A stretch of 64,000 nucleotides of DNA, from positions 124,001 through 188,000 of the forward strand of contig JAVKOQ020000059.1 in assembly GCA_031835245.2 (NCBI GenBank). The letters run 5' to 3'. The first letter of the stretch is position 1, and every line of letters starts with the position of its first letter. A model generated the notes under the pieces. It was not told where the DNA came from. It saw only the letters and a list, made by a program, of their open reading frames with translations, and did not search any database. The position numbers were made by a program, and so were the translations under genes. The DNA comes from Balamuthia mandrillaris. Taxonomy: Eukaryota. Below are positions 13,901 to 60,236 of this stretch, piece by piece.

Positions 13901-14230
13901 GTAAGAAGGGGCACCGCCGCTGCCACCAGCGCTTTCCTCCAGCGCATCTCCGCTTTGAGGCAAAAGGCTCAAGAAAGAGTGCGAGAACAGTTCTTCTTCT
14001 CCAGATCTGGTTTTTTTGTGTGTGTGTTTCGTTGAGCACGAGAGAGACAGAGAGAGGGAGAAAGGCAAAAAAACAAAAGGGAAAAAAAGTAGCACAAATA
14101 AGATATCAAATTAGAAAGAAGGAAAAGAAAAACAAAAAAAATAATAATAATACTAAACGTACGTGCTGAACATTTCTATGAGGTCATGAGCGTCCATGGG
14201 TTGGCCGTCCCGAAGATGAGGTTGTTGCAT
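10986..14230 (-). CDS. Amoebozoan-type STAT transcription factor (low-complexity N-terminus, coiled coil, DNA-binding domain, SH2, C-terminal Tyr)
   Basis: LVVIKQPFPMVLTKNKQ, FIVITNEIQWQGSAGTLLK, SH2 GTFLLRFSERHPGQFGIAY, and terminal GYDPL* matching the Dictyostelium STAT GYEPL phosphotyrosine motif. The first exon (MQQPHL...) is inferred. Confidence 0.93.
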
Positions 14231-22327: not shown

Positions 22328-22544
22328 CTCTTGCCTTGGCGGCTGCTACTCTTTTTTTCTTCTTAATTCACTGATCAAAGAATAACCATGACGACATGAA
22401 TTAACGCAATTTCTGCCGACAATTTTCGATCGATCATATGTTAAACAATCTACCAATCGTGAACTGCCACATCAGCTCGGATAATTGTCACGTGCGGCTA
22501 TTATAATTGGAAGAAAAGAAAAGCAAACTAACACGGAAGCGCGG

Positions 22545-24850: not shown

Positions 24851-24898
<48 letters not shown>

Positions 24899-25337
24899 GC
24901 GTAAACCTTGCTGACTCTTATGTTTATTAACTTTTTCCATTGTTCAAGCGGAACTGTTTGCAGAGGAAGGAAATGAGATATACATCAAACCAGCTTCCTT
25001 GTATGCTCCTCTGGATGTACCATTTTCTTGGCTAACAGTACAAGCAGTTGCCAGGCAATACCATCAAATAGCCATTGGTATCTTCTTCTTCTTCTTTTTG
25101 TTCTTGTTCTTGTTCTTCTTCTTCTTCTTCTTGTTCTTCTTCTTGTTCTTCTTCTTCTTCTTCTTCTTCTTGTTCTTCTTCTTCTTCTTCTACCATAAAC
25201 TCACCCTAATTTTTTGTTAAGGGTATACCTATGGATTGGAGCGGATACCAGTGATCAATCCTCCACAATCAGAACCAATAACGTTTACTCGTCAGCATAA
25301 AGTCGTGGTTGTGGCCGAGGATGAGGAGGACGATTAA
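22545..25337 (+). CDS. CASTOR/POLLUX/DMI1-like cation channel (TM pore module + RCK domains)
   Basis: EAMWWAMVRMIDTGALE pore region, LEEKFEELRRGKSKVIDRNHTLILG, VVRQGSVYSPIDLRKV, QTSRQRGLAAIYADLLTFVGSEFY, ELFAEEGNEIYIKP, VINPPQS...VVVVAED. Confidence 0.88.
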
Positions 25338-37884: not shown

Positions 37885-40800
37885 TTAAGAAGAGAAACAG
37901 GATGGCTCAAGGTCCACGTTCCAAACGGTGAGGGCGGCACCGCGTTGGTACCAATAGGAAGCAGGCAGAGAAGTGGGCATGCGCAGATAAATGGAGAAGA
38001 GCAGGTCCAAACGAGTGGGATTGAGATATACCGGCAACTCCACCTTGTTCTTGTGAAGAACGGCTAAGTCCACCGTCCCTTGTTGTGGTTGGGTCTCTCC
38101 GCGAGGAGGCACGTGCACCCACGTGAAACGCACGTCTGGCATGTTGGTGAACAGGTCTCTCGTGACGGCCAACTGACCTTTCATCCAGGAAGCTCCTTCA
38201 ATGCTGAGTCCATGCACTATGAAGCTGGTGCTGTCCGAAATGACTTGCTGCTCTCCCTCCTGTGATCCATCGAGCACGTCCACATGGAGGGCAAGGTTCT
38301 CTACGGACCAACCGTGAGCACGAGCGGCTGCCTGACGAGTGGCTGTGATGAAGGCCTCGGGGAAGAACAGACCGCCCACCCAGATGGTCAGTTGCTGTTT
38401 GTTGCGTTGGCGCAGGTGATGCAACTGCTTCATGCGGCGAGTGAGATCCACCAACCAAGCATTGACGCTAAGAGTCTCGGGTACGGCGTACATCCTCCAT
38501 TCTCGGGGGATGAGGCCTTTGAGCAGATCGCTCATGATGCTGCGCAAGTAGTTGGTTTGCTTGAGCTCGCCGCGGCATGTCAGTATGGTGTTCTGTAGAT
38601 CGCGACGTACTTTGACCACAAGACCAGCTCCCGCACTGAGCTCTCTTTGGAGGCAGCGAAGGACCGGATCATGTTCGCTGGCGCCGTAATCTTCTCCTCC
38701 TTGCTCCTTTTGCTTGCCCGGCATTTGAGCGAGTTGCTCAGGCAGCAGCAACAACCACTTCTCGGCGGTCTGACTGAGAGCTATCATCCAAGCGGGGAGA
38801 GCACCAGCTACCTCCTTCTCTTTATCTGGGGACTCAGACGAAGATGCGGCCTCATCCTCTTCAATGACTTGCATCTTCTGCAGCTTCTTGAGCATTTCCT
38901 TGCCCTTGTTGGCCAGCAACATCACCTCCGCGTTATCAGGCAGACCAAGCCATGCTGGTGTCTCGTTTTCAGGCATGCTTGCTTGCACCCACTTGATAAA
39001 GTCATCACGGCTTCGGCCATCGGGCACAGTTAGCACTTCGTCATTCTCAGCCGAAGAAGAACCGGCAGTAGAGGAAGCGAGGAGGGCATTGGTGAGCGGG
39101 AATTGAGCATCAAAGCTGTGCGGCGTGAAGAGGTGGTCGAGGAAGGAGTCAAGTAGGCGCTGATCGAAGGGATTATCTACGCGGCCGCCATACACGGTCT
39201 GGCCAAGCAGAGTGCGAAGGGCAACCCATGGGATACGCTCAGGCGGGATGTTGGAACGGCCTTGAGCACGCAAGTCCACCCAGTAGTCCACTGTGTCGAG
39301 CGCACAGCGCAAGTCTGACTCGTTGAACTCAAACATCTTGGACCAACCGAGTGGTGCATAGCGCAAGCGCTCTTGCACCACGGCATGGAACCACGCCAGC
39401 AGGAAGTAAAGGCGGACGCGTTCAACGGGCTGCCTCTCCATTCGGTCTGGCGTTATATTGGAGAAAGTATGCAGCAGGTTGGCGCGAATGCCTGGTGGAG
39501 GCTCGAATACGAACACATGCGCCTCTCGAAGGAGACTAGTTGGGAGACGAGGATGGATCTCTGAAGTAAGGAACAAGCGGAAGGTAGGCTTGGGTTCCAG
39601 GCTGTGAAGCTTCTTCTCCAGCTGTACCAGCCACTGCGGCGCCAAGTGGATGTTCTTGAGGAGGACCCAAGTACCCGACTTGGCGGCTGCCGCGATGGCT
39701 TTCTCCGCCAAATCGAAACCTTCTGCAGAGCCAAGAGCCAGTGACTTGCAGGCACGCTTCGTCTTGTTGACGAGCTCATCAACAAGATAGCTGGCATCAT
39801 GACCGGCGCTTGAGCACAGCAGCAAAGGTGAATCGCTGCTGCTTTCCTTCTCCACAACGTGCAGCAGGTCAAGGTCTGGAATGTGAAGGAACGCCTCTCC
39901 AAACACTTTAGCGGCGTATTGGGCAGCTCCAGCCCTTAGCCTGTCCGGTCTAAGTCCCTTCAACAATAGCAACCGCCTGAACAGAGCAATGACCTTCGAA
40001 GGAGAGGCTCCTGCGCCTTCTTGTTGAGCCTGTTCCCAGGAAGTCGGCACGTGGTGCTCCGCCGTTGGCGAGGTCAGGAAGTGCCTCCACTCTTCTTGGT
40101 TGCTGTTCATATGCTCTGCTATGCGAGCAAAGGACGGCAGCTTACGCAACTCAGAAATAAAGACTCGCTGTGGACCCGACAGGAAGTCCAGCCCCACAGT
40201 AGCTTCGTCGCTCTTTGCGGTGCCGCCAACGTTGTGGGTGCCTTTCAACAAAAAGTCAAACTCGGTGGGATTCGCTTGGTCCGGCGAGTCTTTGAGGCGG
40301 ATCTGAGTCAACCGCAGGGCAAACGTGAGCTGATCCTCATGAAGGAGACCTCTGGCCACGCGTTGGAATACCAGCTGGAACACATCGTGCATCAGCACGG
40401 AGAGGCGCTGAATGTGATCGGTCAGGCCGTCCAGGTGGTCGTTGCGCAGAAGAATGTCGTGGAAGATTCGCAAGAAGAAGTTCAACGAGAATTGATATAG
40501 GAAGTGTACGGAGGCGGTCTGCTCCAGAGCAAAATATATACCAGAACAGGCCACAGCCATTGGCACGTACTCCTCGCTGACAGTGCTGATCTCCTGCATA
40601 ACAACCTCGGTTTGAGCCATCTTGGCGGCAACGGAGGCAGCTTCGTTCTTCAAGGATTCCAACGTGCTAATGACGTGGTCATCTTCCAAAATGTTGTTGC
40701 CCTGAGAGGCATTCAAAGCATCCAACAAGGATTTCTCGAGGTTGCGCAAGCGCACCTTGAACTCGCCCTGCAGCTTGAGCAGGTCCACTCTCTTCTTGTG

Positions 40801-43800
40801 GACGTCGGGGCGCTCTGATTTGAGCACAGAGTGAAGGCACTGGCTCTGGAGGCTGCTAGGTGTCACAGTAAAGTTCACAAAGGTGACACGGCTGCAAAGA
40901 TCGGGAGTGAAGTGGGAGGTGGGATCTCTTGTAGACAAGAAGATGACAAACGAGGGAGAAAAGTCGACGTCTTGGTCGCCAAGCCTTATCAGCACGCGTC
41001 CACCGGTCTTACGAATCTCCTTGTTGAGGACTGGATTGAGAACGGGATCAATGCTTTCCACGTCTTCAACCAACAAGGGTGTGCCGAAACGAAGCGCGCT
41101 CTCCAAGTTCTTCATGAAAGAGGCATCGAGGAAGCTGGTCTTCTTGATCTTGAGGTCGGCGTACTGTTTCATCAAGAACTCGGCAGCCTGGCCCGATGGA
41201 TCGATAACCAACGGGTACCTATTGAAGCGGTGCAACATAATGGCGTTCTCCAAGCAGAGATCATCGGCAGGCAAGGCGTTGTTTTGCCAGGAGAGGCGCT
41301 CGTCGGGTGTAGAGAGGTACTCGATGACAGAGATATCTTCCTTGAAGGCTACGCCAACAGCCTGCAGGTGAGCTTTCCATTGGTTTTGAAGGGTAGTACG
41401 GTAGTGCTGATCAAAGAAGCCAATGTAGGCTAGGAAGGCAGCGCTGATGAAAGAGTCGCCTACAATGGTGGCCATGTGGGCCTTGAAGGTCTCACTGCTG
41501 CTCTCCCAACGATCCTTCTCCGAGTTGAGATTGTAGAGGAGGGCGGTGGATCTCTCTACCTTGGTCTTGACCGTCGCCATCTCGGCCTTGATGGCCTGAG
41601 TCTCGCTGATGAGCATGGCGTATTCGTCCTTGTAGCGGTTGATGCTAGCCTCAAGGTTGGCGATTGTGTTCTCCATCTCTTGCTGCTTGTCCTTTAGCTC
41701 GCCGGCGGCATCTTCTAGGCTTTGCACTTCTTGGCGAAGAGGCTCCACCTTGCCCAGAATGTCGGAGTAGGACACTTGGGCGATGATCCAGGCGGCGAGA
41801 GGGCCACAGGCTTTGCTGGCGTGATTTATCGTCTCAAAGTTGAACTCGGGGTCGCTGAGATACTCCTTCTTTAAGAGGGTACGCAGTTTGGCAGAAATAG
41901 TGTTGGTGTCGAACGACACGATGTTAGAGATGAAGGACTTGTCGACGATCATACGACGAATGCCATCCCAGGTTTGCTTCTGGTGGGTGATGAGAAGGCC
42001 AACAGCCTCCAGGGTCTTTTTGATCTTTTCAGGAGGTCTTCCCAGCACACGGATTTCCTCCAAGTGTTTTCGTTTGATGCCGGACACACTCTTCTTGGCG
42101 GCTTCGACGGCGGGCTCTGCTTTGCTAAGATCCTCGTAGGCCTTATCTTTCTTGATTTGAATCTCCTGCTCTTGCTTTTCCAACTTAAGGCGCAGCTCCT
42201 GAGCAGCTTGTCGCTGTTGCTCTGCTTCTTGCTGGTCTTTAACCATCTGCTGCAGCTTCTCATTGGCCTCAGCCTGCTTTTCCTCCAAGACCTGACTCTT
42301 CACGCGGAGACTTTGCTGCATTTCCTTGACAGCTTGTTCTGTGTCTCTAAGCTTTTGCAAGCCCACATTGACGTGAAGCTGCTGCTCTTCTAGCTCTTCC
42401 CTCTTTTCGTTGATGAGGCGCACAAAGTGGGCGATGAAATCAAGGTAATGACGAGGGGTGACATAGTTGGATCTGCCTTGTTGTCTAGAGAGCTGCCAGT
42501 TGGCGTCGTTAATGGTGTTGTGGACGTAGACGAGGGCGCTGATAACAGCATCGCGATGGGATGGATGAGTAGGATTAGACAAAGGAAGGTTGGTCTCTGG
42601 GAAGAAGTCAGGAGGTTGATAGGTAGGATCATCCAGATCCACGTTCTTAGTGAACTCGGAGCCCACTTGGAACAAAGCTGCATCGGACCACTCTCCGAAC
42701 CAGTCCAACACACAACGGTTGAACAAGGCAGGAGAAGTGGCAGCTCGGTTGTGGAAGTCGGGACTGGCAGGGTTCATCGTGAACACAATGTGAAGATTGT
42801 TACGGACCTGCAAGGTGAACCACTTGTACATCTCTTCCTCTGTGTCCAAAATAAGACCACGGTTCTGGACAGCTTCCTTGCATTGATGCATGAGTGTAGT
42901 ATATTCATCACCCTCAAAGAGACCGGGCACTTCACCGCTGGCCAGCAGCGTGTTCATCCTCTCCAGGAAGCTGGATTCCAGCACGTTGGACTCGTCGAAA
43001 ATGAAGCATATTTTCTCGTCAGCACAGCCCGCTCGCTTCATGACAGTTCGAAGATCGTTGTCGAAGTCTTCGGGGCTGTAGCGGTTGTTGACCTTGATGG
43101 TGAAGATGCTGAGTCCGTTCATCCACGCCACGAAGCGGGAGAGCACAGTCTTACCACCACCGCTCACACCAATAAGTAGAGCGTGTCCCTGTGGTTGACG
43201 GAACACTCGATCGATACGGAGAATGTGGTCCAACACTTCGTCAAAGATAACCAAGGGTACATCCAGCTCCTCCTCGTAGAATACCTTCAGCCTGGCCTTG
43301 ACGTAATCACGGAGCTCAGCTCGTTCCACACGTACGTACTCTTTAGAGAGCCAGTTACTGAAGAGTATGGGCCTGGCCAACGCCTTCTCATCGAGGTTGG
43401 GGAAGTGCTTCATGACGATGGCGTCAATAGTCTTGTCGGTCCATTGAGCTTCTTCTCGAGTGACCAGCCTATCCTGGAAGAGCCGCAGCCCTTCATGCAC
43501 CCACAAGCGCATGAGCTCTTCCAGAGCGATACCTTCTCTTGCCTTGATGGCTGTGTAGAGGGCACGCAACCAGCGAGACAGTTCTCTGGGACTGTAGATG
43601 TAATGGGCGTGCATATCTGGCGTGAACCGCTTCTGGGAGGTCAAATAGAACTCCACCATAGCTTCCGTGAGAGAAGCCGCCTGCGAGCGCAGAGGCGGTT
43701 GCAGCTTCATCAACGAGCGGTAGAAGGTGCCATAGATCTGAATCAACGAGGACTCGGAGGGGAAATCAACGAGCAATAGGGGCACATGTCGCAGGAACCT

Positions 43801-46800
43801 GTGGGACAAGGGCACACGGCCTGCGTCTGTGGGAGGGTTGCATGCTCCCACGAACTGGATCCTCTCCAGGGTGATCCACTCGTGGTCTTTGTTGCCATCC
43901 GTGTTGATCTTCCAGTAGCCACCCTGCTCTGTCAGCTGTCGCATAAACGTGATGACGCGTTGGGTGCCATACGTGTCGTTGGCAGGAAGGTTGACCTCAT
44001 CGCAAAACACGACCAGCCACTTGCCAACCTGCACAGGCTGCAGGACGGTTCCCTTGGGCGTATGCTTCAGCTCGCAGTGCTGCTCAAAGGTTTGCAGCAG
44101 GAGCTCTGGCGTTGTGGCGCTGGAAAAGTTGAGCGACACCATTTCAAAGTCGGGCAAGGATTTGAGGGTGCTATCTAGGGTCATGGTTTTACCGCTGCCT
44201 GGTGGGCCGCACAAGACGAGGGGTCTGTGCTCTGCCAACCAGGATCGAAGCACTTCGGTATGACGCACGGTATCCACAGTGGGAATGACCACATCCGGTG
44301 AGGCCACCATGTGAGTCTCCACTTCGACGGTTGGCACCAAAGTGCTCCACAGGTGCCAATCTCCGTCTTCCAGAGATACCCAGTAGTCCAGCAGGGAGGG
44401 ACCAGAGGGGTCTGGCATTGGCGTTGTGGCCAGGCTCATCACATGCTTGCCAAAGGCCTCCCTATCGGAAAGACCCATGCTGCCGCCCAATCCCCACATC
44501 AGGGCATAATACAACCGGTTCGTCATATATCTCTCCAGCCGGTCCATCGGCAAGTGGAAGTCCGGGTGCTCCTGGTTGTATTGCAGTATGTTGTAGATGC
44601 CTCTGTTGATGAGAGAGAACGATGACAGCAGCGTGCGCAAGCGAGTAAAGTCCATAATGTGGGTCTGTTTTTGGGCATAGGCCATACACTTGTCCACAAG
44701 GTTACCGTTCTCGAAGAAGGGTTCCAGGATCTTGGCCACATCTCGTTGAAGGAGCAAGCCAGAAGGAGCTTCTACTTTGCCCTCGTCCAACAAAGGCTCT
44801 TGCAGCGTGGAAGAGGAACCACCAGCGGTCGGTCTTTGCTTAGTGGCGGCGGTGACCCTACGGAACGACTCACGCTCCACTTCGTCGAGGGGCTCCCACT
44901 GAAGCCGGAGCAGGTAGTTAGTGTAGATCATCTGCGTGGTCAGCGTCTCCTCCGAGAACCAAACCATGCCACAGCGACTGACAGTGGCTGGGGTTGCATA
45001 GCGAAGGTCCTGTACTTCGAACATGACCCGCACGTTGTCGGGCAGAGCCAGACGCTCGCCGTTGGGAAGGGTCAGCAGCTTGTTGTCATCCAGTAAACTG
45101 TTCAAATTTTCAACCCATTCAGGGTCCACATCACCGTCGAAGACGAACCAGTGTCGCTTATTGCTCTCTCCTCGCACATTATCTACTATCTTACGAAGCA
45201 AGCCCGTAAACAGACCATCCGTCCATTCTCTGGTGGTGGCATCCAAAGAGCCAAAGAGCTGCTCCTTGGTGATAGCTTTGGGATCCAACACGTAGGCCTC
45301 GGCCTTGATGCCCTCGCACCTCTCCAAAGCTTCAAGCAGCACGCGCCATGCTGAGCTCTTGCCGCTGCCGGAAGGTCCTACCATCATAACACCATGTCTT
45401 AGTATTTGGATCTGGTAAAGTTGCAACAGCTTCGCTTCCCACTCTGGGCTGACCACGAGGAAACGTTCCTTGCAAATCTCTGCGATTTTGGCTCGCAGCT
45501 CGTCCAAACTTATTGGGTTGGGCACTGAATTGGGGAATACGTCAGACAGTAGCGCCTGGAACAATGGAACATCACCGGCCACCAGCTTTGGAATGACGTT
45601 CTCACAGATGCTTCGCAACAGGATCTCTTGTTCAAAGGTTGTCCACTCTGACTCGCTTTCCTTTGGCTTCTCTTCTTCCCCTTCCGTTATGGTGTAAGTC
45701 TTTCGCTTGATGTTACCAGCGCTCACCAACACGCTCTTCAGAGCTCGCAATCCAAAGTCGTAGTGGCTTTGGGTGGATAGTTGCTCGCGGCAGAGGTTGA
45801 ACAGTGGTACCACTTTGCTTGCTAAGCGCTCCGCCGTCTTGAAGCCTTGTGAATAAAGCATCACCTGAGAAAGAGAGGCTGGTCAGGACCTTGATTTCTT
45901 TTTGCCTAGACTAGAGCAAGCATACCTGAGCAATCAACTCTCTGTCCGGTTGAATCATAGCAACGCCACGGAAGAGTTGCTTAAGATTGTCCGGCAAATT
46001 AGAGCGTCCCGCATAACCTGGATTCATTGTCACGAAGATACCCTAAATAAAATTTGAGAAACAAGTTCATCACAATAAGATAACAGTTTTCACAGTGATT
46101 GAGGAGGATGTGTGTACCATGACGGGGTTGATTTTGACGGATTTGCCGATGATCTCCACTTCTTTGGCCTTCTCCTTGAGTGCCACTTGAATGCCCTGGA
46201 TCTGCTGAGAGACAGCAGAGAGCATCCGCTCTTCCAGACGATTGAATTCGTCAAAGCATCCCCACGCACCACATTGACAAAGTCCAACAAAGATACGGCC
46301 CATGGCTTGGAAGTCAAAGTTTTCATCACAACAAAATACCAAAACAAATCGACCAAGTTGAGTACCCAACGCCTTAACTGTTTCTGTTTTGCCGGTACCG
46401 GCAGGACCGAAAGGACTGCCACCCAGACGAGCTTCCAGGGCTTGCGTTAGGGTCAAGTAGCAACGATCCGTCAATGGGGTCTGCACAAGTCGTTCGGCCA
46501 CGCCCAAGTACTCGAATCCATAAGTGAATGAGGCATTGGCCATTCGCACGGTCAATCTTTTCAGAAGCGAGTCCTTGCTAGGGTTCCAATAAAATCTCAT
46601 TTCTTGGAGCCACATAAAGTCAGCGGCACTGCTTATTTTGTGCTTGATCAACTATATTAACGTGGACCAAAACAAGTGTCAGATAAGATAGTGTCAAACA
46701 AAAGCGAGCATGACTTCGAAACTAAAATACCTTTCGGATGACATCTCGTTGATGAACGCATTCAGTGATAAGGTGTTCGTGTTTTACACGCTTAGTTGGG

Positions 46801-49800
46801 GCGAGATCCTCTATAACGCTATCGGCCAACAGGTTCAGTTTGTTCTCAATGTTTTGCAGAACTTTGGCGAGTCCTTGTTGGGCTGACTCCGAAGAACCTC
46901 CCTCTTCGCCCAGGGCCTGCTCTACTTCCCTGCACCACAGCACTTGAGAGGCGAGAACCACGAGCTGTGCTGGACATCTATCAATCCAAGACAGATAGGC
47001 CTTCGTGTCCAAGGTTGCCGCTTGTTCTATAACTTCCATTTCTGCTATGTAATCCTGTAAGAGAGAGGCAAGCGTGAATTTCATCTCGTTTTCGACCGTG
47101 CTCAGCCATTCGTATATCTTGGGGTGGTCCTTGAGTGAGACCGCCTTCTTAAACATCACCACCTCGCCTTCGCGGGACGACATGCCCAATATGTTGGCCT
47201 GCTCTTCGTCAAGTACCAATGAGGCCAATCCTGCAAACATTTTTTTAAGATGTTTCTGCACCTTAAAACTATGTAATGCGTGAGTTAATTGTGCAACTCT
47301 AGAGAAATTGGTGGTAACAAATAAAGGCTATAAAGACGTACATGTCCTTGCTGTTACCGATAATCTCCAACAAGTCCTCATCACCAACAAAGTAAAAGCG
47401 TGGGAAGGCAGAGCGTTGTCTCTCGAGATATTCACCGAGGGCTTTTTGGATCTTGGTCAGCAGATCGGAAAGCCTTTCAAGAGAACGGAACAGGCCCTCG
47501 ATCTCCAGCACCTCCAGAATTAAAGGTGCCTTGCTGACTTTGCGCATGAGAGTAACAAACTCGGTGTTGATGCTACGGAAGCGGGTGCTTTCCACGGGCA
47601 ATAGGTGTTGAATATCTCCACTTCCAGCAAAGATGCCTTCCAGGTATACCCATCTACGCTGAACATCAATCCACACGTCAAAGATCTGCTGAATACGATT
47701 CAATTTATCTTCCCAGCCGCTAGCTTCCTCTTTGAAGACCTTGAAGTAAGGAGACATCTTCATGGCGCCCAACGAGTTGGAGTGCTCTGCTACTTTGGCA
47801 AAGAGGTCGTCCCAGCCACGAATAAGTCGGCACTTGTTCTGGTAGTTCACCAAGTCGAGTTCATACTGCTGCCAGAATTGGCGAATCTGAAAGTAAAGAA
47901 AGATGTGATTACTAACGTAACTCTCCATCTTTACGAGCTTATGGAGCATATGCAAACCTGTTTAATAAATTCTTCCAAGGCAAGTTCTCCTTGTGCCTGC
48001 TGGATGATATCTTTGAACAGCTTGGCATTTCTATTCAAGTCGCAGTCCCAGATATCCCCGAGTGTCAACTCTGTAAATAGCCAATTTGCATTTAATTGTC
48101 GCCGCAGAGTCTTCCAGTGTCTCTCTTTGAGGGCCTCAGAGCGCAAATCTACAATAATCATGTTGGCTTTAAGGTGTCTACAAAATGACAAAAGAGAGTT
48201 AGACAAATCACTTATTTCCTGCAAACTGATGATTGGAGTGAGTGACGCACGATTTCACTGTTGATTGCAAGTGCTCGAAGGCAGAATACTGCCTGACGCG
48301 GTTTGGCAAAGTCTTTAAGCTGGAGAGGATCTCATCCAGAGAGTGGCGTATCTGGAATGGACAATAGAGATTTATAAGCAATTTGGTGTGTTTGTTTTTT
48401 TTTTTGAGCTGATGTAGGTACCTTTCGTGGGATAACCGCCGACCAAGGAATCTCTTTCAAGGTGTCCAAACTCTTCCATACGTCGGATAACTTGTTCCAC
48501 ACTTCCTTCAAATCATTCATTTCTTCTTCGATGGGTGTTAAGACGTCCTCCGACTGTATTAAAAGGTAAGGAGCTAAAGAGAGAGAAAAAAAAAGGAATT
48601 TAAAACGGTTGTAGCGCACCTCAGTTTCCAGGTTAAGAGCGACCTTAGCCTTGCAAATGCGATCATATTCCTCTTTAAGTCTTACGAGCCGCCCATCGAA
48701 AATCTTCAACGTCTCAAGAGCAGTTGTGAACTTCGTATCCCCAGAAACCGGTTTGGAATTGTTCCAGTCCTCGCTAAACTGGCGGATCTTTTCTGCGACA
48801 GACTTTCCTTCAGCGGCAACTTTCATCTGCAATGCTGGAATTTCGGAGTTGATAGAATCTGTCTTGCGACTGAGTATCTCATTGAATGCATTCCACTCGC
48901 CCTCTACCATGTCAAACTCCAGCCAATCAGCAGGAAATTGGAAGCGTTGGCGACGCAGCAAATCTTGTCCTGAACCGTAACAACGAAGCTCTTCTTCCCA
49001 TGCCTTTGTTTATGATAATAAGAATAACCAACATTCGTCATGAGATGGATGTAAGGTGTCGAAAATATAATTTGAGAAACCACGTACCGGGATGCACTTC
49101 TTGATTTCTTGAACTCTGATGATGAAGGCCACTGCCTCCGCAGTGGAGTCTGTCTCAACTGAGTGTTGTTCAAGCTCCACACGGGATGAAGAGATTTTGC
49201 TCTGGAATGTGCAGGATAGCAATAACGTTGTAAGAAACTCGTAATATAGGAAGAGAAAAAAATGGATACATACATGGAAGGCCTTCATGCTATCGGCAAG
49301 CTTTATGCCGAACTTTTTCAAGACATCCTTGTGCCAAAAGTCATATTTGTGATTCACATTGGACTGAACTTGGCCATAACGAATTACAACAGTACCAAAG
49401 GACTTTTCGCTCTCAGAAGTATCAAACGTCTTACGAGAACGTTTGATTTGTTCTAGAACCTGCAATTAAAAACGTTAGTCGGATTTGGCCAAACTGTGGG
49501 AAGTAAAATATGGAGCCAAACCTTTTGCCAGGTGAACAAGTCATCACCAAGGCGAGAATACAGCGTAGAAGCTTCCATATCCCAAAGTGCTTGATACTGC
49601 AGCCATATTTGAACATACTGCTCAACTTCACGCAGCTTATCCTCCAGAGTATTGTACGCTTGCTTCATAGCACCTTCGGGCAAGCGAGCCAACTAATAGC
49701 GCAAAAAAAAGTTAGAACACTGCCAACAGGCTATTCTACAACGAATAGAGCAAAAACAGATAGGCACCAGTTGTCTATAAGTGTTGATAGCAGCAGCGTG

Positions 49801-52377
49801 CATATCTTTCTTGTGGACAAGACCTTCATCATAACGAGAACTTTGTGGTCGGGAAAGGTCACAAATGTTGGCCAACCAAGTAGAGAGCTGTTGCACCCAG
49901 TGTTCCCTTGCATGCTCCAAAGGGGGATCTAGTGCAATAATCTGGTTACGGATGACAATCTCGTGATAACTGGTTTCTATCTTGGGTCTGTATAACTTTT
50001 TCCTATGCAAGGGTTGTTGCGCTTCTTTGACTTCGGTAGAGAGCATGTCTCCATCAGAGGTAGCGGAGGGCGCCACTTCTCCTTGGTCACTATCACGAGA
50101 GGCAGGGACACTACCAGCTGGGGCTCTTTTCCGTCTGGCCATGGCGCTGGAGCGGTAAGAGGAAGCTGTGGAGATGGAGTGCTGCGACTCCACCACTTCG
50201 TCATCTTGGCCGAAGGTGGAAATCCAGGCCTGGAACGCTTCTTCTAAGCGTTGTAACAGAATCTTTTCGATCTGCTTGTCCAACTCCCTCACCCAGGACT
50301 CCAAGTTGGAATAAGAAGCCAGATTGAGGTAGTCCACCACCTTTTGTATGTTTTCCATGACTTGGCTCAGAGTGTCCTTTTCCAGCGCGCACAAAGCCAA
50401 GGTGTTCAACGCGGTTTGGATTTCCGAGTACTTGACAAGTAGCTCATCCACCTTATCCTTGAAGGTAAGCACCGAGTCGGAAAGACGTCGAACGTAGGGA
50501 TCGACCTTAGAAAGCGTCTCCCACTTGATGTGAAAGCCCTCGCTGATATGATGCTGCACATCTAGCTTGTAGGCCGAGATGAGGGGAGCGATCTCTGGTC
50601 CAATCTTGGCTGAGGTCTGGGTGTAAGTTCGGATGGCTTCCTTCAAAGAAACAGCGAACGGATAGACCTGCTTCGCTCCACTTGCCAACAAGGTGATCGA
50701 AAAGGGGACGCGGAAATTGAGCCATTGCAGGTTGCGTACTTCCTTGAAAAGGGTGATGATGTTCGGGTCGAAATGCACATCTAGCATGAGAGTCTTTCCT
50801 TTCTTTGTTACATTGAGCAACCGCCCTGATACTTGAAAATTACGCGATTCCACGTCTTTGGCCCATTTTTCGAAGATCTAATAATGATGGCGAAGAAGGC
50901 CGAAAAAGTTAAAAGGCTAAAACTTCGCGCAAGTGAGTGTCATCAAAGGAAGTTGTGTACATACAACGTTAGCGTTAAGCTTTCTGCGGAACCTCTCACC
51001 ATCAGCTTTGAGCTTCTGGCCCTCCACATCGCGCTCCCAACCTTGACCCAACACATCTTCCACTCTTTGCATTTCGGTGGCGAGCTGACGCTCAATCTGC
51101 CTGGCCCAGATAATAGCTCCAGACACTGGTGGCAAATCTCTGAGTTGACTCATGCGGTAGGCCTCTGAGTTGCTGTATTGAGTCTTGAATTTGTCATGAA
51201 GTCCTTTGATATCGTCCTTCACTCGCTCAATGAGTTGTGTTTGGTATTCCTGGATAGCACCACGGATGCGAGGACGGAAGAACAGGGCGTTAAACTTGGA
51301 AAAGACCCTGAACATTTCGCTTGCATTCTTGGCCGTTGCTAACTTGTCTCGAAGCTTGGCTGTAATTTGAGACTCGACGCGATCGATCTTCGAGTCATAT
51401 CTCTTAACCGCAGCCTCCCAAATCTCTGTCCCCTCTATCCAAACAGTAAGACACAAGGTGCGATTTTATAAATTCAAAAAAAGAGAGAAAACGTACCTCT
51501 TGAAAGGTCGAGAATATCATTCACACGGGTGACTTCCTCGTAGGCATCTTTGATTTCTTGGCTTGCATTACGCCCATCTGCGCTGTTTGGCGAGAGCACT
51601 CGCACTATAACGTTCAACAATTCTTCATGTTGATGCCTAAACTTACGCAATTGGGAGATGCGCTCTTGCAATGGGCGATTCTCTGCGTTAACCTAACAAA
51701 GAGGGTTTACATGTTAGAACGAGAGTCCTTATTGGAAGTGGACAATTGGCACGTACTCGTAGCGGGATTTTATCTTTCTGGCGCTTCCGGGCAAGATCCC
51801 TGATGGAGTCGCGGAAGCTATCAAACTCATCCTCCCAAACAGCAAATAGAGTGCGGCAGGCAGAGGTTATCTGATCAAACTCGGGGTAGGTTAGGTGCAT
51901 TAAACGTTTTGCCCGCAAAAGCATCAACAATTTGGAACACATGTCGCGTGAAACAGCCTCTACCAAACGGAGATAGCGTGGGATAGGATAGTGGGCATTC
52001 TTGGTTCTCTTCAAGTGGGTAAAGATGGCTTTAACTGCTTCAGAAACCTTCTCCACCTCGCTGGCGGTTAAAAGCTCATCAACAGGGAAATCTTTCATAA
52101 GGCTTTTGTAGTGAAGAACTACAAAAAACAAAAAAACAAAAAAACACAAATGAGTAAAAAAGGTCGTGGTATGAAGCTCTGATATAAGGCTCTAACCTGT
52201 CTCTTTGGCTTTCTTCAAGCCAATAGTATCGGTGTCAAACGCAGCAGTTGCGTGGAAACGTTTTGCTTGTTTCAAAATGCCAAGAGTACATTCTATTTAA
52301 AGAGATGAAAGAACAGTAAATTATCAGGCGGGAAATGGAGAGAAGGGATAGTAATGAAGAAGCTTGTAACGAGGATG

Positions 52378-52414
<37 letters not shown>

Positions 52415-53480
52415 GGAATGTGACTGCATACGTGCTTCAGGGGAGGCAAGTTGCTCAGTAATATCATTTAACACTCCTTCCAGTTCCATCCAAAACTTGA
52501 TTTCTTGCGATGTTTCGCTATTAGGGGGCATGTTCTCAATTCTTTCGTGCTTTGTGACCTTTTGAATGTTGCGAATCCATGTGTTTACTCCGGCCTGCAA
52601 AGCGTTCAAAAAGTCGGTGTCGGCTGCCCGCACTTCCAAGTCTTGCACTTTCAGCGTTCTGCCATGCTCTTTGCACTTTAGAAAAAAATGATTCGGTTAG
52701 ATAAGCCTTTTAGGCAAAACATGAATAGGCAGTGAGTACGAACCGCAGCAGACGCCTGTAAGATCTCAGGATAAAACGCGAGTTTCACTTCCTCGATTTG
52801 TATGTTTTGCTTGCAGTTGTAGAGGGAAAGCTCCAGCTCGGCAATTTTCTTGTCAACGGTGGCCAACCCCTTGGGGTCCTTCTCGCTGGTCTTCTCCGAG
52901 GACTTGGCATAGGAACGGAAGAAGGGGGCCAACGAGTTGTGCACAAAGGAGTGGAGCGTCTCAAAGGGAGTGCCGCTGGCAAACTTGAGGAGCTGCACCT
53001 GGGAAGCCACGCTCTTGCTGCCCCCGAACACGCAGTCCTCTGGCTGGTTTTTGATGACGACCATGCTTGGGCTCTTCTCATCCGTGAAGCTGACCTCCAA
53101 GCCAAACTCTACCGTTGCGCCCTCTTTGGGGGAAGCACCTACTTGCGTGAAAGAAGAAGTAAGAGAGTGAGCGAGAGTGAGAGAGAGAAAGAGAGAGAGA
53201 GAAGAGTAGTGATGAGACGTCAAGTGTTTCATCAACAATCTCGATTTTGTGTGCTATTATTGTTGCAAACAAACAAACCTTGCTCTGACTCTTCCGGTGC
53301 AGTGTATTGGCAGAAAAGCACAGAAGTCCTGCTGTCAGTAGCGAATTGATGAATCTTGGCTTTGGCGTCGGTGCTCTCCAGTGCGTGGGCAAAATCGGTT
53401 GCCGGCACGCCCAAGATCAAGGGACCGGCTTGCGCCAAGTACTCCTCCACGGCACGCCTTGCCGCTGCTTCCTCCTCCAT
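37885..53480 (-). CDS. DYNC1H1: Cytoplasmic dynein 1 heavy chain, multi-exon
   Basis: Four P-loops [24 protein letters not shown] and [45 protein letters not shown]; stalk coiled coil; terminal exon of about 8 kb. Confidence 0.98.
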
Positions 53481-53762
53481 TTGTCGTCTGTTTTTTTTTT
53501 AATGTAGAATAAAACTTGTGTAAAACTTGTTATTTCGGTGGTTACTGCTTGTTTTCGTGGAGGAGCAGCGCCAGCCCCTTTCTTCTCCCCCCTTTTCTTC
53601 GCCTCTCTCTCTCTCTCTCTCTCCTTTTTTTTATTTATTGTTTATGTCAGTACTATCCATATTCGGTTAGGGATGACGTCAATTCTTGATATATGTTGCA
53701 AACAGACCTATAGGTTCGCGTCGTCCTGAAGGACAGAGAGAGAGGAAACGGAAGCTGATCGA

Positions 53763-56700
53763 ATGATGTGGGGCCGGGGCGTTGTGCTGCCCGCCAGGGG
53801 AGGGAAGCTGAACCAAGGGCGTGCTTGTCAGCGCTTGCCGTTGCGCTCTGGCGCTTGCTTTCTCCAGAATCGCAGATACTACTTCGCGAGCTCCTTCCGT
53901 TGTTGCGGTGAGCGAGTGCTTGTCCTACTTTTCTTTCTCTTATCACCCATACTTTCGTTACTCGTCTTTGTTGTGCTTTGCACCCAATCGCTTGTTCTCC
54001 ACTCACTGTGCCACCAATAGAGAAAAGCAAAGAGGGAAAACCAAGGAGGAGCATCCAGGAACAACGGCACACGCGCAATAGCACGTCGGCAGGCTTTCCT
54101 CAAAATGCAACCATTACTACCCCCGCTAGGGAGGCCGGATTGGGCAGAGAACACACACGGCAGCTGCAAGGGCTAGCGAGAGGAGCAGGCCGCCTTCAGG
54201 CAGGCGTACTGAGCAGCACGTTGGAGGAGATGGAAAGGGCGGGGGTAAGAGCGGAGGATCGAACTTACATGGACCTGCTCAAGCGCTGCAAGCAGGAGAG
54301 GAGCCTGCAAGCCACCCAGCGGGTGCATGCTCACCTCCTTTCTCTCTCTTCCACTTCTGGTGGGCGACGGGTGCCTTCCAGCCTTGCTGCTTCCCTGATC
54401 AGTGCCTATGGGGCATGCGGCAAGCTGGACCAGGCTAGTGCAGTGTTTAAGCAGCACTTCAAGGAAGGCGAGCCGTGGACATGGAACGCAATGATGCAAG
54501 CTCGCACACAGTGTGGTCATGGGAAGGAAGCCCTGGAGCTGTTCCAAGAGATGCAGCAGGCTGGCGTGCCAGCAGGTTCCTTGACCTTCTCCATCGTCCT
54601 CAAGGCCTGCGCGATGGCGAAGGACTTGGAGGCGGGCAAGCGTGTGCACGCTGAGCTGCTTCGCCGCGGCTCGTTAAGCGTCTCCGAGTCAACGGCACTG
54701 ATCAACATGTATGGCAAATGTGGAAGGATGGAAGAGGCGCGCGCTGTATTCCAAAACATGAAGGAACGAGACGTGGTAACGTGGACCGCTATGATTACGG
54801 GGGAAACCCAAAGTGGCTGCGGGAAAGAAGCACTGGAGCTATTCAAACAGATGCAGCAGGCTGGCGTGCCAGCAGACCCCTTCACTTTCGCCAGTATCCT
54901 CAAGGCGTGCGCGATGACAAAGGATTTGGAGGTGGGCAAGCGTGTGCATGCTGAGCTGCTCCGCCGTGGCTTGTTAGGCACCTCTGAGTCAACCGCACTG
55001 ATCAACATGTATGGTAAATGTGGAAGGATGGAAGAGGCACGTTCTGTTTTTCGTGGTATGACGGAACGGAACGTGGTAACGTGGACATCCATGATTACAG
55101 AGGAAACCCAAAGCGGTCACGGGAAGGAGGCCCTGGAGCTATTCAAAGAGATGCAGTGGGCTGGCGTGTCAGCAAACTCCTTCACCTTTGCCAGTGTCCT
55201 CAAGGCCTGCGCGATGATAAAGGACTTGGAGGCGGGAAAGCGTGTGCATGCTGAGCTACTCTCTCGTGGCATGTTGAGAATCTCTGAAGCAAATGCCCTG
55301 ATCAACATGTATGGTAAATGTGGGAGGATAGAAGAGGCACGCGCTGTGTTCCATGGGATGAATGAACGAGACGTGGTAACGTGGACCGCTATGATTACGG
55401 AGGAAACACAAAGTGGACATGGGAAGGAAGCTCTGGCGCTATTCCAAGAAATGAAGCAGAAAGGTGTGCCAGTAGACTCTATGACCTTCGCTAGCGTGCT
55501 CAAGGCGTGCGCGATGACAAAGGATTTGGAGGTGGGCAAGCGTGTGCATGCTGAGCTGCTCCGCCGCGGCTCGTTAAGCGTCTCCGAGTCAAATGCCCTG
55601 ATCAGCATGTATGGCAAATGTGGGAGAATAGAGGAGGCACGTTCTGTTTTTCGTGGAATGAAGGAACGGAACGTGGTAACGTGGACATCCATGATTACAG
55701 AGGAAACCCAAAGTGGCTGCGGGAAAGAAGCCCTGGAGCTATTCAAAGAGATGCAGCAGGCTGGCATGCCAGCGGACGCCTTTACCTTTGCTGGTGCCCT
55801 CAAAGCCTGTGCGGATACGGCAGACTTGGCGATAGGCAAGCAAGTGCATTCTGAGCTACTTCACAGAGGTCTAATTCCTGATGTTCTTCTCTCGACGGCC
55901 CTGATCAACATGTATGGTAAATGTGGGAGAATAGAGGAAGCACGCGCTGTGTTCCAGGAGATGAAGGAACAGAACATCGTTTCATGGAATGCAATGATAG
56001 CCGTGCATGGACTACATGGACAAGGCAAAGAAGCACTGGCCACATTTGATGAGATGCAACAACAAGGTGTGCAGCCAGACGCCATCACATTCACCAACGT
56101 GTTGAACGCGTGCAGCCATGCAGGGCTGGTGGAGGAAGGCATGGCCTGCTTTGCTGACATGACAGAAAAGCACAGCATCCAGCCCACAGTGGAACATTAC
56201 AACTGCATGGTAGACCTGCTGGGTCGGGCAGGGAGGGTGGAGGAGGCGGAAACTTTGATCCACGCGATGGAGGTCCCACCTGATGCGGTGACATGGATGG
56301 CTTTGTTAGGGGCATGCCGAGGGACCAAGGATGTGCAGCGAGGCAAAAGAGCAGCAGAGAAAGCAATCGAATTGGATCCAGAGAACGCAGCACCCTTTGT
56401 GGTGCTTTCCAACATCTTGGCAGCCGCAGGGCAATGGAAGGAGGTGGAGAGAGTGCGCAAGCAGATGGAGGAACGCAACGTGAAGAAAGAGCCAGGAAGG
56501 AGCTGGATCACTGTGGATGGGCAGCTTCATAGCTTCGTGGTGAAAGATCGTAGCCACCCACGCAGCCCAGAGATCTACCAACAATTAGCCCAGCTGGACC
56601 AGCTTATGAAGGCCGCCGGCTACAAGCCAGACACGGACTGGGTGCTGCACGATGTGCCGGACGAGCAGAAGGAGGAGGAGCTGTGCCATCACAGCGAGAA

Positions 56701-56902
56701 GCTAGCCATTGCATTCGGCCTGCTGAGCACCCCACCAGGGCAGCCCCTGCGCATCATTAAGAACCTCAGGGTCTGCGGGGACTGCCACACCGCCACCAAG
56801 TTCATTGCCAAAGTTACCCAGCGAGAGATCTTGGTGAGGGACGCCAATCGCTTCCATTACTTTTCGCCAGATGGCAGGTGCTCTTGTGGCGATTACTGGT
56901 GA
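53763..56902 (+). CDS. PLS-class pentatricopeptide repeat protein with E1/E2 and DYW cytidine deaminase domain (exons 53763-53907, 54021-56902)
   Basis: Five 100-aa P-L-S triplets, P2-L2-S2, PG box (EPGRSWI), HSEKLA, CGDCH and terminal CSCGDYW. Exon 1 is Arg-rich and acid-free (MMWGRGVVLPARGG...NRRYYFASSFRC) and splices in phase. Confidence 0.95.
54474..55976 (+). repeat. Five tandem 300-bp coding repeats (PLS triplets) in the PPR gene
   Basis: Near-identical blocks recur at exact 300-bp spacing, e.g. atcaacatgtatgg at 54701, 55001 and 55301, and its variant at 55601. Confidence 0.9.
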
Positions 56903-57135
56903 TGATGATGATGATGATGATGGTGTTTCAAAAAAAAACTTGGGAAGACAACCATCTTCCTCTTCTTCTTCCTCTTCCTCTTCTTCATCATCATCCGCGC
57001 GCATACGCATTTATGTAGACATAACCCTCGCTCGGCTTGCCGGTGGGCCAAATAAACAACAAAGAAACACCACCGTCGGTTGGCGCAGTTGCCAAGAAGG
57101 GGAAAGAGAGAGAGAGAGAGAGAGAGACAAGAAGC

Positions 57136-58068
57136 ATGACGGGTTTGGCCAAGACGGTCAAGAGATCGTGGCCATATATTGCCGCCACCTTGTTATGTAT
57201 AGCAGTGATAGTGTTGATGTGCGTGGCGTGTGCCACGGACTGGTATGAGGCCGACGGTGAGGGGCAGATCAAGGTGCAGCGGAACGAAACCTACCCTAAG
57301 CTGTTTGAATACCTTCCTCTGAGCTGGTCCATCAAAGAAGACCTCTTCTCGTTAACGTTGGAGATCGGCTCTTCATCTGTAACATGCGACTACAAAGACG
57401 GCAAATGCGATGGTACGGAATAACTTTCGTTCCATCTGTCTATCATCTCGTTCGTGAGTTGATACTTATGTGTTGTTCTGCACCTGTGAGCAGCGGCTAG
57501 AGATTTGGTGAGAGCATACTACAATGCAGGTGCGTGGACCACGGACACTTGCCAAACGCCACCATGCTATAACCGCCCATGGGACGTCTCCGAGTACGAG
57601 GGTGCTTACATCGGCATCCTCTTCTTCTCCATCCTGAGCATGCTGCTGGCATTGGCCGTCGCAGTGCTCAGCCAGCTGGTTTACTGGAAGGCCATGGACT
57701 GGGAGCGAACGGCCCGAGGGCTCTCTATCGCCAATGTCGTGATATCAGCCCTGCTCATCGTCTCTCTCTTCATCACTTGGGGCATCCTTTGGCATCACCC
57801 TAAGATGGCGCAAGGCTCCTTGGACTATCATTCCTGCGATGAGGACTTTGAGGATGAGGAGAATGGCAGCTTCTTGTGTAGCTGGATGGGGGATATCAAC
57901 GTGGGCAAGCAGGTCAGCAGGCAGACCGAATGGTCGGGCTTTTACTGGCTGGACTATTCGGAAGAGTGGGGACCTTCCACCGCCTGGACTCTCACCACGG
58001 TGGCTTTGGGCTTGGCTATGGCTTCTCTCACTCTTGTCGTTGGTTGGAAACCAGCTTTCGAATCTTAG
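57136..58068 (+). CDS. Four-TM membrane protein with claudin-like topology, two exons, function unknown
   Basis: TM1 followed by ATDWY, a Cys-containing first loop, TM2/TM3, a second Cys loop, then WGPSTAW and TM4. Intron about 57413-57493. Confidence 0.6.
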
Positions 58069-58142: not shown

Positions 58143-59987
<1,845 letters not shown>

Positions 59988-60236
59988 CTCTCTTTCTCTC
60001 TCTTTTTATTTTGTTAAATAAAAAATGGGTATATTTCTTTTCTCTTTTTTATTTCTTTTTCTTATTTATAAATATAGATAGATAGATGGATGGATGGATG
60101 GATGGATGGATGGATGGTTAGATAGATTGATGGCAAAGGAGGAGGGAGGAGGAGGAGGAGGAAAGCATGGCAAGCCCGCTGCAAGCCTCTCTCATCTCCG
60201 TGGTGGATGTATGGAGGGTTCTCTCTGAAAGCTATA

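What the first reader, a model, noticed from the sequence alone, without database searches (positions are those of the whole stretch)
53763..56902. Plant-type PLS-DYW RNA editing factor with a mitochondrial-type presequence in an amoebozoan
Seen: a complete P-L-S array, E1/E2, PG box and an intact Zn-deaminase signature (HSE...CGDC...DYW). A short first exon, not joined in the ORF track, supplies an Arg-rich acid-free presequence. Established: DYW-PPRs carry out organellar C-to-U editing in land plants and occur sporadically in protists such as Naegleria, Acanthamoeba and Physarum. Inference: site-specific mitochondrial C-to-U editing in this organism.
Basis: partly seen in the sequence, partly recalled or inferred. 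Interest (0 to 1): 0.7.

Follow-up and report, generated by a model that had tools for sequence, protein, structure and literature searches.

The report
Brain-eating amoeba's plant-type RNA-editing gene
This is a real, spliced gene of the pathogenic amoeba Balamuthia for a plant-type RNA-binding deaminase with an intact active site, one of a dozen or more related copies, which likely changes chosen C letters to U in the amoeba's mitochondrial RNA, though that editing was not observed here.

Summary
Observation confirmed. Exon 1 (53763-53907) and exon 2 (54021-56902) encode a 1008-aa PLS-E1-E2-DYW protein. The 113-nt GT..AG intron is skipped in public sequencing data. The organism is Balamuthia mandrillaris. 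All catalytic residues, and 23 of 26 function-mapped residues of the solved editor 9kfx, are kept. The code residues predict the target GGnAAnUGnYGnAUnUnnnC. The gene is one of 18 annotated loci (about 12 if near-identical pairs are alleles). The 13 placed in a tree form one clade among land-plant sequences, all scorable copies share a one-residue insertion, and most keep an acid-free presequence. The arrays grow and reshuffle in 300-nt triplets. Editing itself was not tested: no Balamuthia mitochondrial DNA could be fetched. Against a one-gene-one-site reading, Naegleria and Acrasis have 11-12 such genes but two sites each, and NCBI's model of this locus splices off the DYW tip (unresolved). 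My searches found no report of DYW genes or C-to-U editing in Balamuthia. Verdict: new member of a known kind. A likely mitochondrial editing factor (0.55), directly testable with public data.

The parts
53763..53907 (+). Exon 1: residues 1-48, Arg-rich acid-free predicted mitochondrial presequence
53874..53891 (+). R-Y-Y-F-A-S (residues 38-43), resembling a mitochondrial processing-peptidase site; a similar motif in 10 of 16 full-length family N-termini
   Evidence: pattern chosen after seeing the sequences; paralogs not independent; likeness to the MPP consensus is recalled
53908..54020 (+). Intron 1, 113 nt, GT..AG
54021..56902 (+). Exon 2: linker, PLS array, E1, E2, DYW domain, stop
54257..54472 (+). 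Degenerate N-terminal L and S motifs (helical in the model)
54473..55975 (+). Five P-L-S triplets; a 300-nt tandem repeat (4.9 copies, 79% matches); the first four units 77-85% identical in DNA
55976..56284 (+). P2-L2-S2 triplet (codes ND, TT, ND)
56285..56488 (+). E1 (56285-56386) and E2 (56387-56488) motifs
56492..56899 (+). DYW cytidine deaminase domain: PG box, H939-S940-E941 (56690-56698), L964, C967xxC970 (56774-56785), C1002/C1004, D-Y-W (56891-56899)
56878..57018 (+). Possible second intron used by NCBI model P0001 (GTGCTC..ATGTAG, 141 nt), which would replace CSCGDYW by another tail; not resolved by reads

Best explanation
The gene encodes a complete plant-type PLS-E1-E2-DYW protein that is likely imported into Balamuthia mitochondria, is predicted to bind a site like 5'-GGnAAnUGnYGnAUnU-3' on a mitochondrial transcript, and would deaminate the C four bases downstream to U. 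Shown: gene structure, splicing of intron 1, domain order, intact zinc and catalytic residues, canonical code residues, family membership. Inferred: import and presequence cleavage near residue 40; one-motif-one-base binding with S2 opposite position -4; stand-alone Zn/Glu941 hydrolytic deamination as in moss PPR56/PPR65 and consPPR-DYW; a native target. The family most likely stems from one ancestral gene of land-plant type that expanded in this lineage and changed targets by duplicating, deleting and converting 100-aa triplets.
For: Residues mapped in consPPR-DYW (PMC13324415 sections 8, 10, 11 read, plus passages; P0022 matches the paper's numbering at 26 of 26 positions) are kept at 23 of 26, including H939, S940, E941, L964, R965, C967, C970, R784, R992, F993, W1008; the differences are T412>A, V419>G and H598>Y. 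Identity to P0022 is 226 of 357 over the C-terminal part. phmmer best hit 9kfx at 2e-137; AF2 model pLDDT 85 and Foldseek best hit 9kfx, E 1e-44, TM 0.80 on target. All 11 P/S motifs from -19 to -4 carry canonical pairs under the code in PMC6397227. Family-wide, P motifs are canonical in 102 of 106 against 1009 of 1342 in the other hits, and S-motif last residues are D or N in 45 of 45, the pattern expected under selection for base reading. 16 of 18 loci keep HSE..CxxC. 14 of 16 full-length N-termini are acid-free for at least 35 residues, and the neighbouring bacterial-type ProRS has a similar RRYSS N-terminus. Single moss DYW proteins edit on their own in E. coli (PMC6397227, abstract and results part 1). 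DYW genes led to finding C-to-U editing in Naegleria and Acrasis (passages).
Against: No editing was observed; no Balamuthia mtDNA locus was obtained. In Naegleria and Acrasis the DYW genes (11, 12) far outnumber the confirmed sites (2, 2), so a given copy may have no site. NCBI's model splices off CSCGDYW, and in moss PPR65 mutating the terminal Trp abolishes editing. Two Balamuthia mtDNA papers annotate the ORFs straight from DNA and contain the word 'editing' 0 times, so there is no obvious need such as missing start codons. Transcript level looks low: 17, 36 and 5 reads laid from 12.9 million records per run, some of them from paralogs. One of the interface residues (His598) is Tyr here. 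Targeting was judged from composition only; no predictor was available.
Confidence: 0.55

Rival explanations
1. The protein is mitochondrial and binds RNA sequence-specifically, but it acts in stabilisation, processing or intron splicing of transcripts rather than editing, with the deaminase unused or spliced off.
For: Excess of DYW genes over sites in Naegleria and Acrasis, whose authors suggest cleavage or splicing roles. The NCBI model lacks the DYW tip. P0121 has no E/DYW part and P0018 has a dead site yet keeps its array. Balamuthia mtDNAs carry strain-variable introns.
Against: Catalytic and interface residues are conserved in 16 of 18 loci while presequences and arrays diverge, which a non-catalytic role would not require.
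Confidence: 0.22
2. The organism does edit mitochondrial RNA, but this copy is a surplus product of rapid duplication and triplet shuffling with no current target, catalytically intact only because it is young.
For: Short branches within the clade; recent 300-nt duplications with mosaic identity, including a 68-nt identical run between units 600 nt apart; near-identical pairs that differ by whole triplets, e.g. P0004/P0014 at 98% C-terminal identity and 300 aa apart; low read counts.
Against: This copy is 15% or more away from every paralog in the C-terminal 274 columns (best 85%), and its frame is open over 3 kb with every code position from -19 to -4 canonical.
Confidence: 0.16
3. The protein works outside mitochondria, for example on cytosolic, endosymbiont or viral RNA.
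For: No localisation data; cytoplasmic roles were raised for surplus protist DYW proteins.
Against: Presequence-like N-termini are kept across the family.
Confidence: 0.05
4. The sequence is plant contamination or an assembly artefact.
For: The nearest non-Balamuthia hits are land-plant proteins.
Against: The gene lies 282 nt from a dynein heavy-chain start, in a window that also holds a STAT gene. GC3 is 0.63 against 0.66, 0.69, 0.63 and 0.47 in four neighbouring ORFs. 11 runs from 4 studies of the same organism hold half or more of its words. Natural plant hits reach only 47-63% identity. The paralogs sit on 15 contigs.
Confidence: 0.01

Closest known systems
Land-plant PLS-E1-E2-DYW editing factors (consPPR-DYW 9kfx/9kfy; Physcomitrium PPR56/PPR65; OTP86 7o4e; DYW1 7w86)
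   Same: Same motif order (P1L1S1)n-P2L2S2-E1-E2-DYW, PG box, HSE..CxxC, CSCGDYW; 63% identity to consPPR-DYW over 357 C-terminal residues; same fold.
   Different: Amoebozoan host without plastid; one extra residue before CSC in 19 of 19 scorable Balamuthia rows and 0 of 93 others; lineage-specific P-motif helix (M-I-x-E-E-T-Q-S-G) and a recent 300-nt tandem array; activity and target not shown.
Protist DYW-PPR families of Naegleria gruberi (11 genes, 2 sites) and Acrasis kona (12 genes, 2 sites)
   Same: A lineage-specific expansion of about a dozen plant-type DYW genes in a free-living amoeba, attributed to transfer from plants (PMC4202320 passages).
   Different: Different supergroup; editing is shown there and not here; none of their sequences appeared by name among my 226 hits, so relatedness was not tested.
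Amoebozoan DYW-PPRs of Physarum polycephalum (16 genes) and Acanthamoeba castellanii
   Same: Same supergroup; DYW genes reported. Acanthamoeba is in the same order, Centramoebida (one search places Balamuthia there; the rest is recalled).
   Different: Physarum has a heavily edited mitochondrial genome, whereas Balamuthia's is annotated as ordinary. No Acanthamoeba or Physarum protein was named among the top 120 of either search, so orthology is open.
PPR-DYW of paradinid Ascetosporea and of Diplonema
   Same: Protist DYW proteins in organisms with mitochondrial C-to-U editing (passages).
   Different: There 1-3 genes face many sites; here many genes face an unknown number of sites.

Membership tests
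PLS-class PPR-DYW proteins (sequence family) | (P1-L1-S1)n-P2-L2-S2 array with 35/35-36/31-aa motifs | tested here: met
   Five triplets of P35, L34-35, S31, then P2 35, L2 36, S2 32; four of the five L1 motifs are 34 aa, one residue short
PLS-class PPR-DYW proteins (sequence family) | E1 and E2 motifs and PG box | tested here: met
   Pfam E_motif and Eplus_motif above cut-off; gap-free alignment to 9kfx through this part
PLS-class PPR-DYW proteins (sequence family) | HxE(x)nCxxC catalytic zinc site, base-stacking Leu, second zinc site and terminal DYW in the reading frame | tested here: met
   H939, E941, L964, C967, C970, C1002, C1004, D1006-Y-W1008
PLS-class PPR-DYW proteins (sequence family) | DYW tip retained in the mature mRNA | tested here: inconclusive
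   Reads stop near 56823 and 56890-57000 was skipped as repeat; the NCBI model splices the tip off
Organellar C-to-U editing factors (functional class) | Canonical code residues at positions 5 and last of P and S motifs | tested here: met
   11 of 11 from -19 to -4; the first P motif (NG) is non-canonical
Organellar C-to-U editing factors (functional class) | Mitochondrial localisation | tested here: inconclusive
   Composition and family conservation fit a presequence; no targeting predictor or localisation data available
Organellar C-to-U editing factors (functional class) | A C-to-U site in the organism's organellar RNA that matches the array | not testable with these tools
   No Balamuthia mtDNA was held in the collections searched; the indirect read-laying attempt returned no data
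Organellar C-to-U editing factors (functional class) | Deaminase activity on RNA | not testable with these tools
   Needs an E. coli or in vitro assay
U-to-C (KP / DYW:KP) editing factors | Loss of the PG box and an HAE site with a GRP/DRH-type tail (recalled definition) | tested here: not met
   PG box, HSE and DYW are all present

The most novel reading that the evidence does not exclude
Balamuthia mandrillaris runs an unreported plant-style mitochondrial C-to-U editing system. A single plant-derived DYW gene expanded into a dozen or more stand-alone editors that retarget quickly by gaining, losing and converting 300-nt P-L-S triplets, each fixing its own mitochondrial codon. It would give a compact natural test set for the PPR code outside plants, and an enzyme class that the human host lacks.
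Probability: 0.4. Interest if true: 0.62.

Novelty: new member of a known kind. Interest (0 to 1): 0.42.

Why it matters
If the inference holds, the proteins made by Balamuthia mitochondria differ from what its published mitochondrial genomes predict, in a nearly always fatal human pathogen whose RNA editing I found no paper on. It would also bear on an open question: why protists carry many more DYW genes than editing sites. With 12-18 arrays whose code positions are almost all canonical, a 41-kb mtDNA and public RNA-seq, factor-to-site assignment can be tested by computation alone. The triplet-level array turnover gives a natural view of how editing specificity evolves. The enzyme class and its patchy presence in protists are already known, so this is an extension, not a new mechanism.

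Tried and rejected
(1) Getting Balamuthia mtDNA to compare RNA with DNA: two published primers found 0 matches in each of the three collections; a published accession was not held; no whole genome is held for the window; Rfam found no RNA family in the window. (2) Indirect route: a cox1 motif scan and a protein scan gave fungal, bacterial and one unidentified protist mitochondrial contig. A homologue search with its nad5 listed no Balamuthia protein among 120. Laying Balamuthia runs on that contig returned no data, so editing stays untested. (3) Scanning the predicted target on that unrelated mtDNA: best 9 of 11 matches, while 176 of 200 shuffles reach 9 or more; the cox1 GNWFVP stretch (8 of 11) is rejected as a candidate. 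(5) The profile search of representatives never ran (queue full on 10 tries), so distant protist DYW proteins are missing from the tree and the donor and the relation to Acanthamoeba are untested. The sister of the clade (P0210, support 84, long branch) is not interpretable. (6) No DYW relative in viral contigs: 7 pattern matches, 0 confirmed. (7) The survey paper on DYW proteins in diverse eukaryotes (PMC3858438) and the 2023 review (PMID 36527364) were not held; what they say about Acanthamoeba was not seen. The Acanthamoeba mitochondrial proteome paper has 0 hits for DYW, PPR or editing in its main text; its supplements were not looked at and may list such proteins. (8) The presequence motif count (10 of 16 against a shuffled mean of 1.5, 0 of 1000 shuffles as high) uses a pattern chosen after the fact on related sequences and is not a valid p-value. 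(9) The P5 column was fixed by my search pattern and is not used as evidence.

Full report
Gene structure. The long open frame 53912-56902 has no Met near its start. An upstream ATG at 53763 opens a 145-nt exon that joins it through a 113-nt GT..AG intron, giving 1008 aa with no internal stop. Laying 4 runs on 53500-57200 showed this joint in one contig of X11 (RNA by guess, depth 23.9; the piece 54020-54497 has 0 other letters) and in 1 read of RNA run X19. Raw-read counts were low (17, 36 and 5 laid of 12.9 million records each), roughly half ran on into unlike sequence and so probably include paralog reads, and mates lay both ways, so strand could not be read. The gene starts 282 nt from a divergently oriented dynein heavy-chain gene.

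Organism. The best hit is an NCBI model of Balamuthia mandrillaris, 100% identical over 97% of the query region (P0001). 11 runs from 4 studies of one organism hold half or more of the stretch's words. GC3 is 0.63, against 0.66, 0.69, 0.63 and 0.47 for four neighbouring stop-to-stop ORFs. Plant contamination is excluded.

Domain anatomy. Pfam gives PPR, E, E+ and a full-length DYW_deaminase match. The array is a degenerate L and S, five P-L-S triplets, P2-L2-S2, E1 and E2. The best solved relative is the synthetic editor 9kfx, by sequence (E 2e-137) and by fold (model pLDDT 85; Foldseek E 1e-44). From PMC13324415 (sections 8, 10 and 11 read in full, plus passages) I took 26 residues assigned to RNA contact, catalysis or the PPR-DYW interface. 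P0022 matches all 26 and the window protein 23, with every catalytic and zinc residue kept. Of 12 paralogs in that alignment, 11 score 23-24 and P0018 scores 15, with a dead site.

A caveat on the tail. NCBI's model ends in a different 12-residue tail because it splices 56878-57018, which removes both C-terminal zinc cysteines and D-Y-W. The reads did not reach this point. Of the 19 other Balamuthia models, 17 end in CSCxDYW, one in CSCGDRW and one lacks the domain, so the genomic tail is under family-wide constraint. Whether the intron is real is unknown. It matters, because loss of the terminal Trp abolishes editing in moss PPR65 (PMC6397227, results part 1).

Predicted target. With the code and register given in PMC6397227 (last S opposite -4), all 11 P/S motifs from -19 to -4 are canonical and spell GGnAAnUGnYGnAUnUnnnC. 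Across the family, 102 of 106 P motifs are canonical, against 1009 of 1342 in the non-Balamuthia hits (rough pattern-based parse). In 45 S-P pairs from 12 proteins, S5 is N, T or S and S-last is D or N in all 45. Specificity positions thus toggle only among readable states, which indicates selection for sequence-specific RNA binding (inference). The target could not be located, and a scan of an unrelated protist mtDNA was at chance level.

Family. The two homologue searches (top 120 each, only about 8000 candidates scored) and two cluster look-ups gave 20 Balamuthia models: 18 loci on 15 contigs after merging two isoform pairs, and about 12 if near-identical pairs are alleles or haplotigs. This is a lower bound. 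16 of 18 keep HSE..CxxC. A tree of the last 275 or so residues used 143 rows: the window protein and 142 of the 226 hits; rows without a scorable deaminase motif near the end, P0001 and P0121 were left out. The 13 Balamuthia rows formed one side of a branch with SH-aLRT 99, and 0 of 500 label shuffles did as well. They sit among land-plant and unnamed rows with an unresolved sister, in a quick, midpoint-rooted tree. A one-residue insertion before CSC is in 19 of 19 scorable Balamuthia rows and 0 of 93 others. No named Acanthamoeba, Physarum or Naegleria sequence was among the hits, so neither the donor nor the independence of the acquisition is shown. Horizontal origin from plants is the published reading for other protists, not a result of mine.

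Array turnover. The array is a 300-nt tandem repeat (4.9 copies). The first four units are 77-85% identical in DNA, with patchy similarity and a 68-nt identical run between units 600 nt apart, which suggests duplication plus conversion. P0004 and P0014 are 98% identical in the last 270 aa and 91% in the first 120 but differ by exactly 300 aa. P0009 and P0015 are 97% identical at the C-terminus but have different codes. Assembly or annotation error in a repeat cannot be excluded for these pairs.

Targeting. The first 48 residues hold 8 Arg, 1 Lys and no acid; at the protein's own composition an acid-free run that long has probability about 0.002. 14 of 16 full-length family N-termini have no acid before residue 36, and 10 of 16 show an R-x-Y/F..S/T motif near residues 25-40 (post hoc pattern). 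The adjacent bacterial-type prolyl-tRNA synthetase, presumably mitochondrial, has a like N-terminus. This supports mitochondrial import but does not show it.

Editing. I could not obtain Balamuthia mtDNA, and the indirect routes gave no data, so the key test is open. Precedent cuts both ways. DYW genes predicted editing correctly in Naegleria and Acrasis, but 11 and 12 genes face two confirmed sites each (PMC4202320 passages); Physarum has 16 such genes (PMC4758236 passages). I put the chance that Balamuthia edits some mitochondrial C to U at about 0.7, and that this copy is an active factor with a native site at about 0.55; both are judgements.

Literature. Searches: DYW+Acanthamoeba+pentatricopeptide+editing (9 papers); Balamuthia+mitochondrial genome+RNA editing (4); Balamuthia/pentatricopeptide/DYW/PPR, at least two terms (15 of 2,820 listed); Acanthamoeba+C-to-U+DYW (7); Balamuthia+DYW anywhere (3: one is 'bodyweight'; one cites Balamuthia only in its references; one seen as listing only). 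Word searches within the Balamuthia genome-annotation paper and two mtDNA papers found no DYW/PPR discussion or RNA editing (DYW and PPR were searched only). The library lacks most subscription journals and the two most relevant surveys were not held, so 'unreported' is limited to these searches. NCBI's automatic names already call several copies DYW or PPR proteins.

Verdict. The feature is real and is a clear member of the PPR-DYW sequence family; its function as a mitochondrial editor is likely but unshown. Earlier notes of this scan record similar families in two other protist genomes (unchecked leads), so such genes are not rare. Novelty: new member of a known kind; interest 0.42.

Noticed in passing
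window 56878-57018: The NCBI gene model uses a 141-nt intron here that removes the second zinc site and the DYW tip; if real, this is an alternatively spliced, probably non-catalytic isoform.
   Followed up: partly
P0018 and P0121 (paralogs, not in the window): P0018 has HSD and SxxS in place of HSE and CxxC but keeps a long array and a DRW end; P0121 has nine P motifs and no E or DYW part in its model.
   Followed up: partly
window 58143-60005 (minus): Bacterial-type prolyl-tRNA synthetase with a presequence-like N-terminus (RRYSS at about residue 40), probably the mitochondrial enzyme.
   Followed up: partly
window 11122-14110 (minus): STAT-family gene with STATa Ig, EF-hand and SH2 domains, as in Dictyostelium and Acanthamoeba (recalled).
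   Followed up: no
window 57136-58068 (+): Small multi-exon membrane protein gene with several hydrophobic stretches just downstream; no Pfam match at 0.001 for either ORF piece, no NCBIfam match for the larger.
   Followed up: no
window 37885-53480 (minus): Cytoplasmic-type dynein heavy chain (identified by eye), head-to-head with the DYW gene across 282 nt, so a shared promoter region is possible.
   Followed up: no
window 22485-24914 (+): ORFs that look by eye like a CASTOR/POLLUX-type ion channel (recalled likeness); no Pfam match for the first ORF.
   Followed up: no
L004/L039 and L001: Contigs filed in the viral collection are mitochondrial DNA: L039 (from a giant-virus bin) is a gene-rich protist mtDNA with nad7, nad5, cob, cox2 and cox1; L001 is a fungal mtDNA with many endonuclease introns.
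   Followed up: partly
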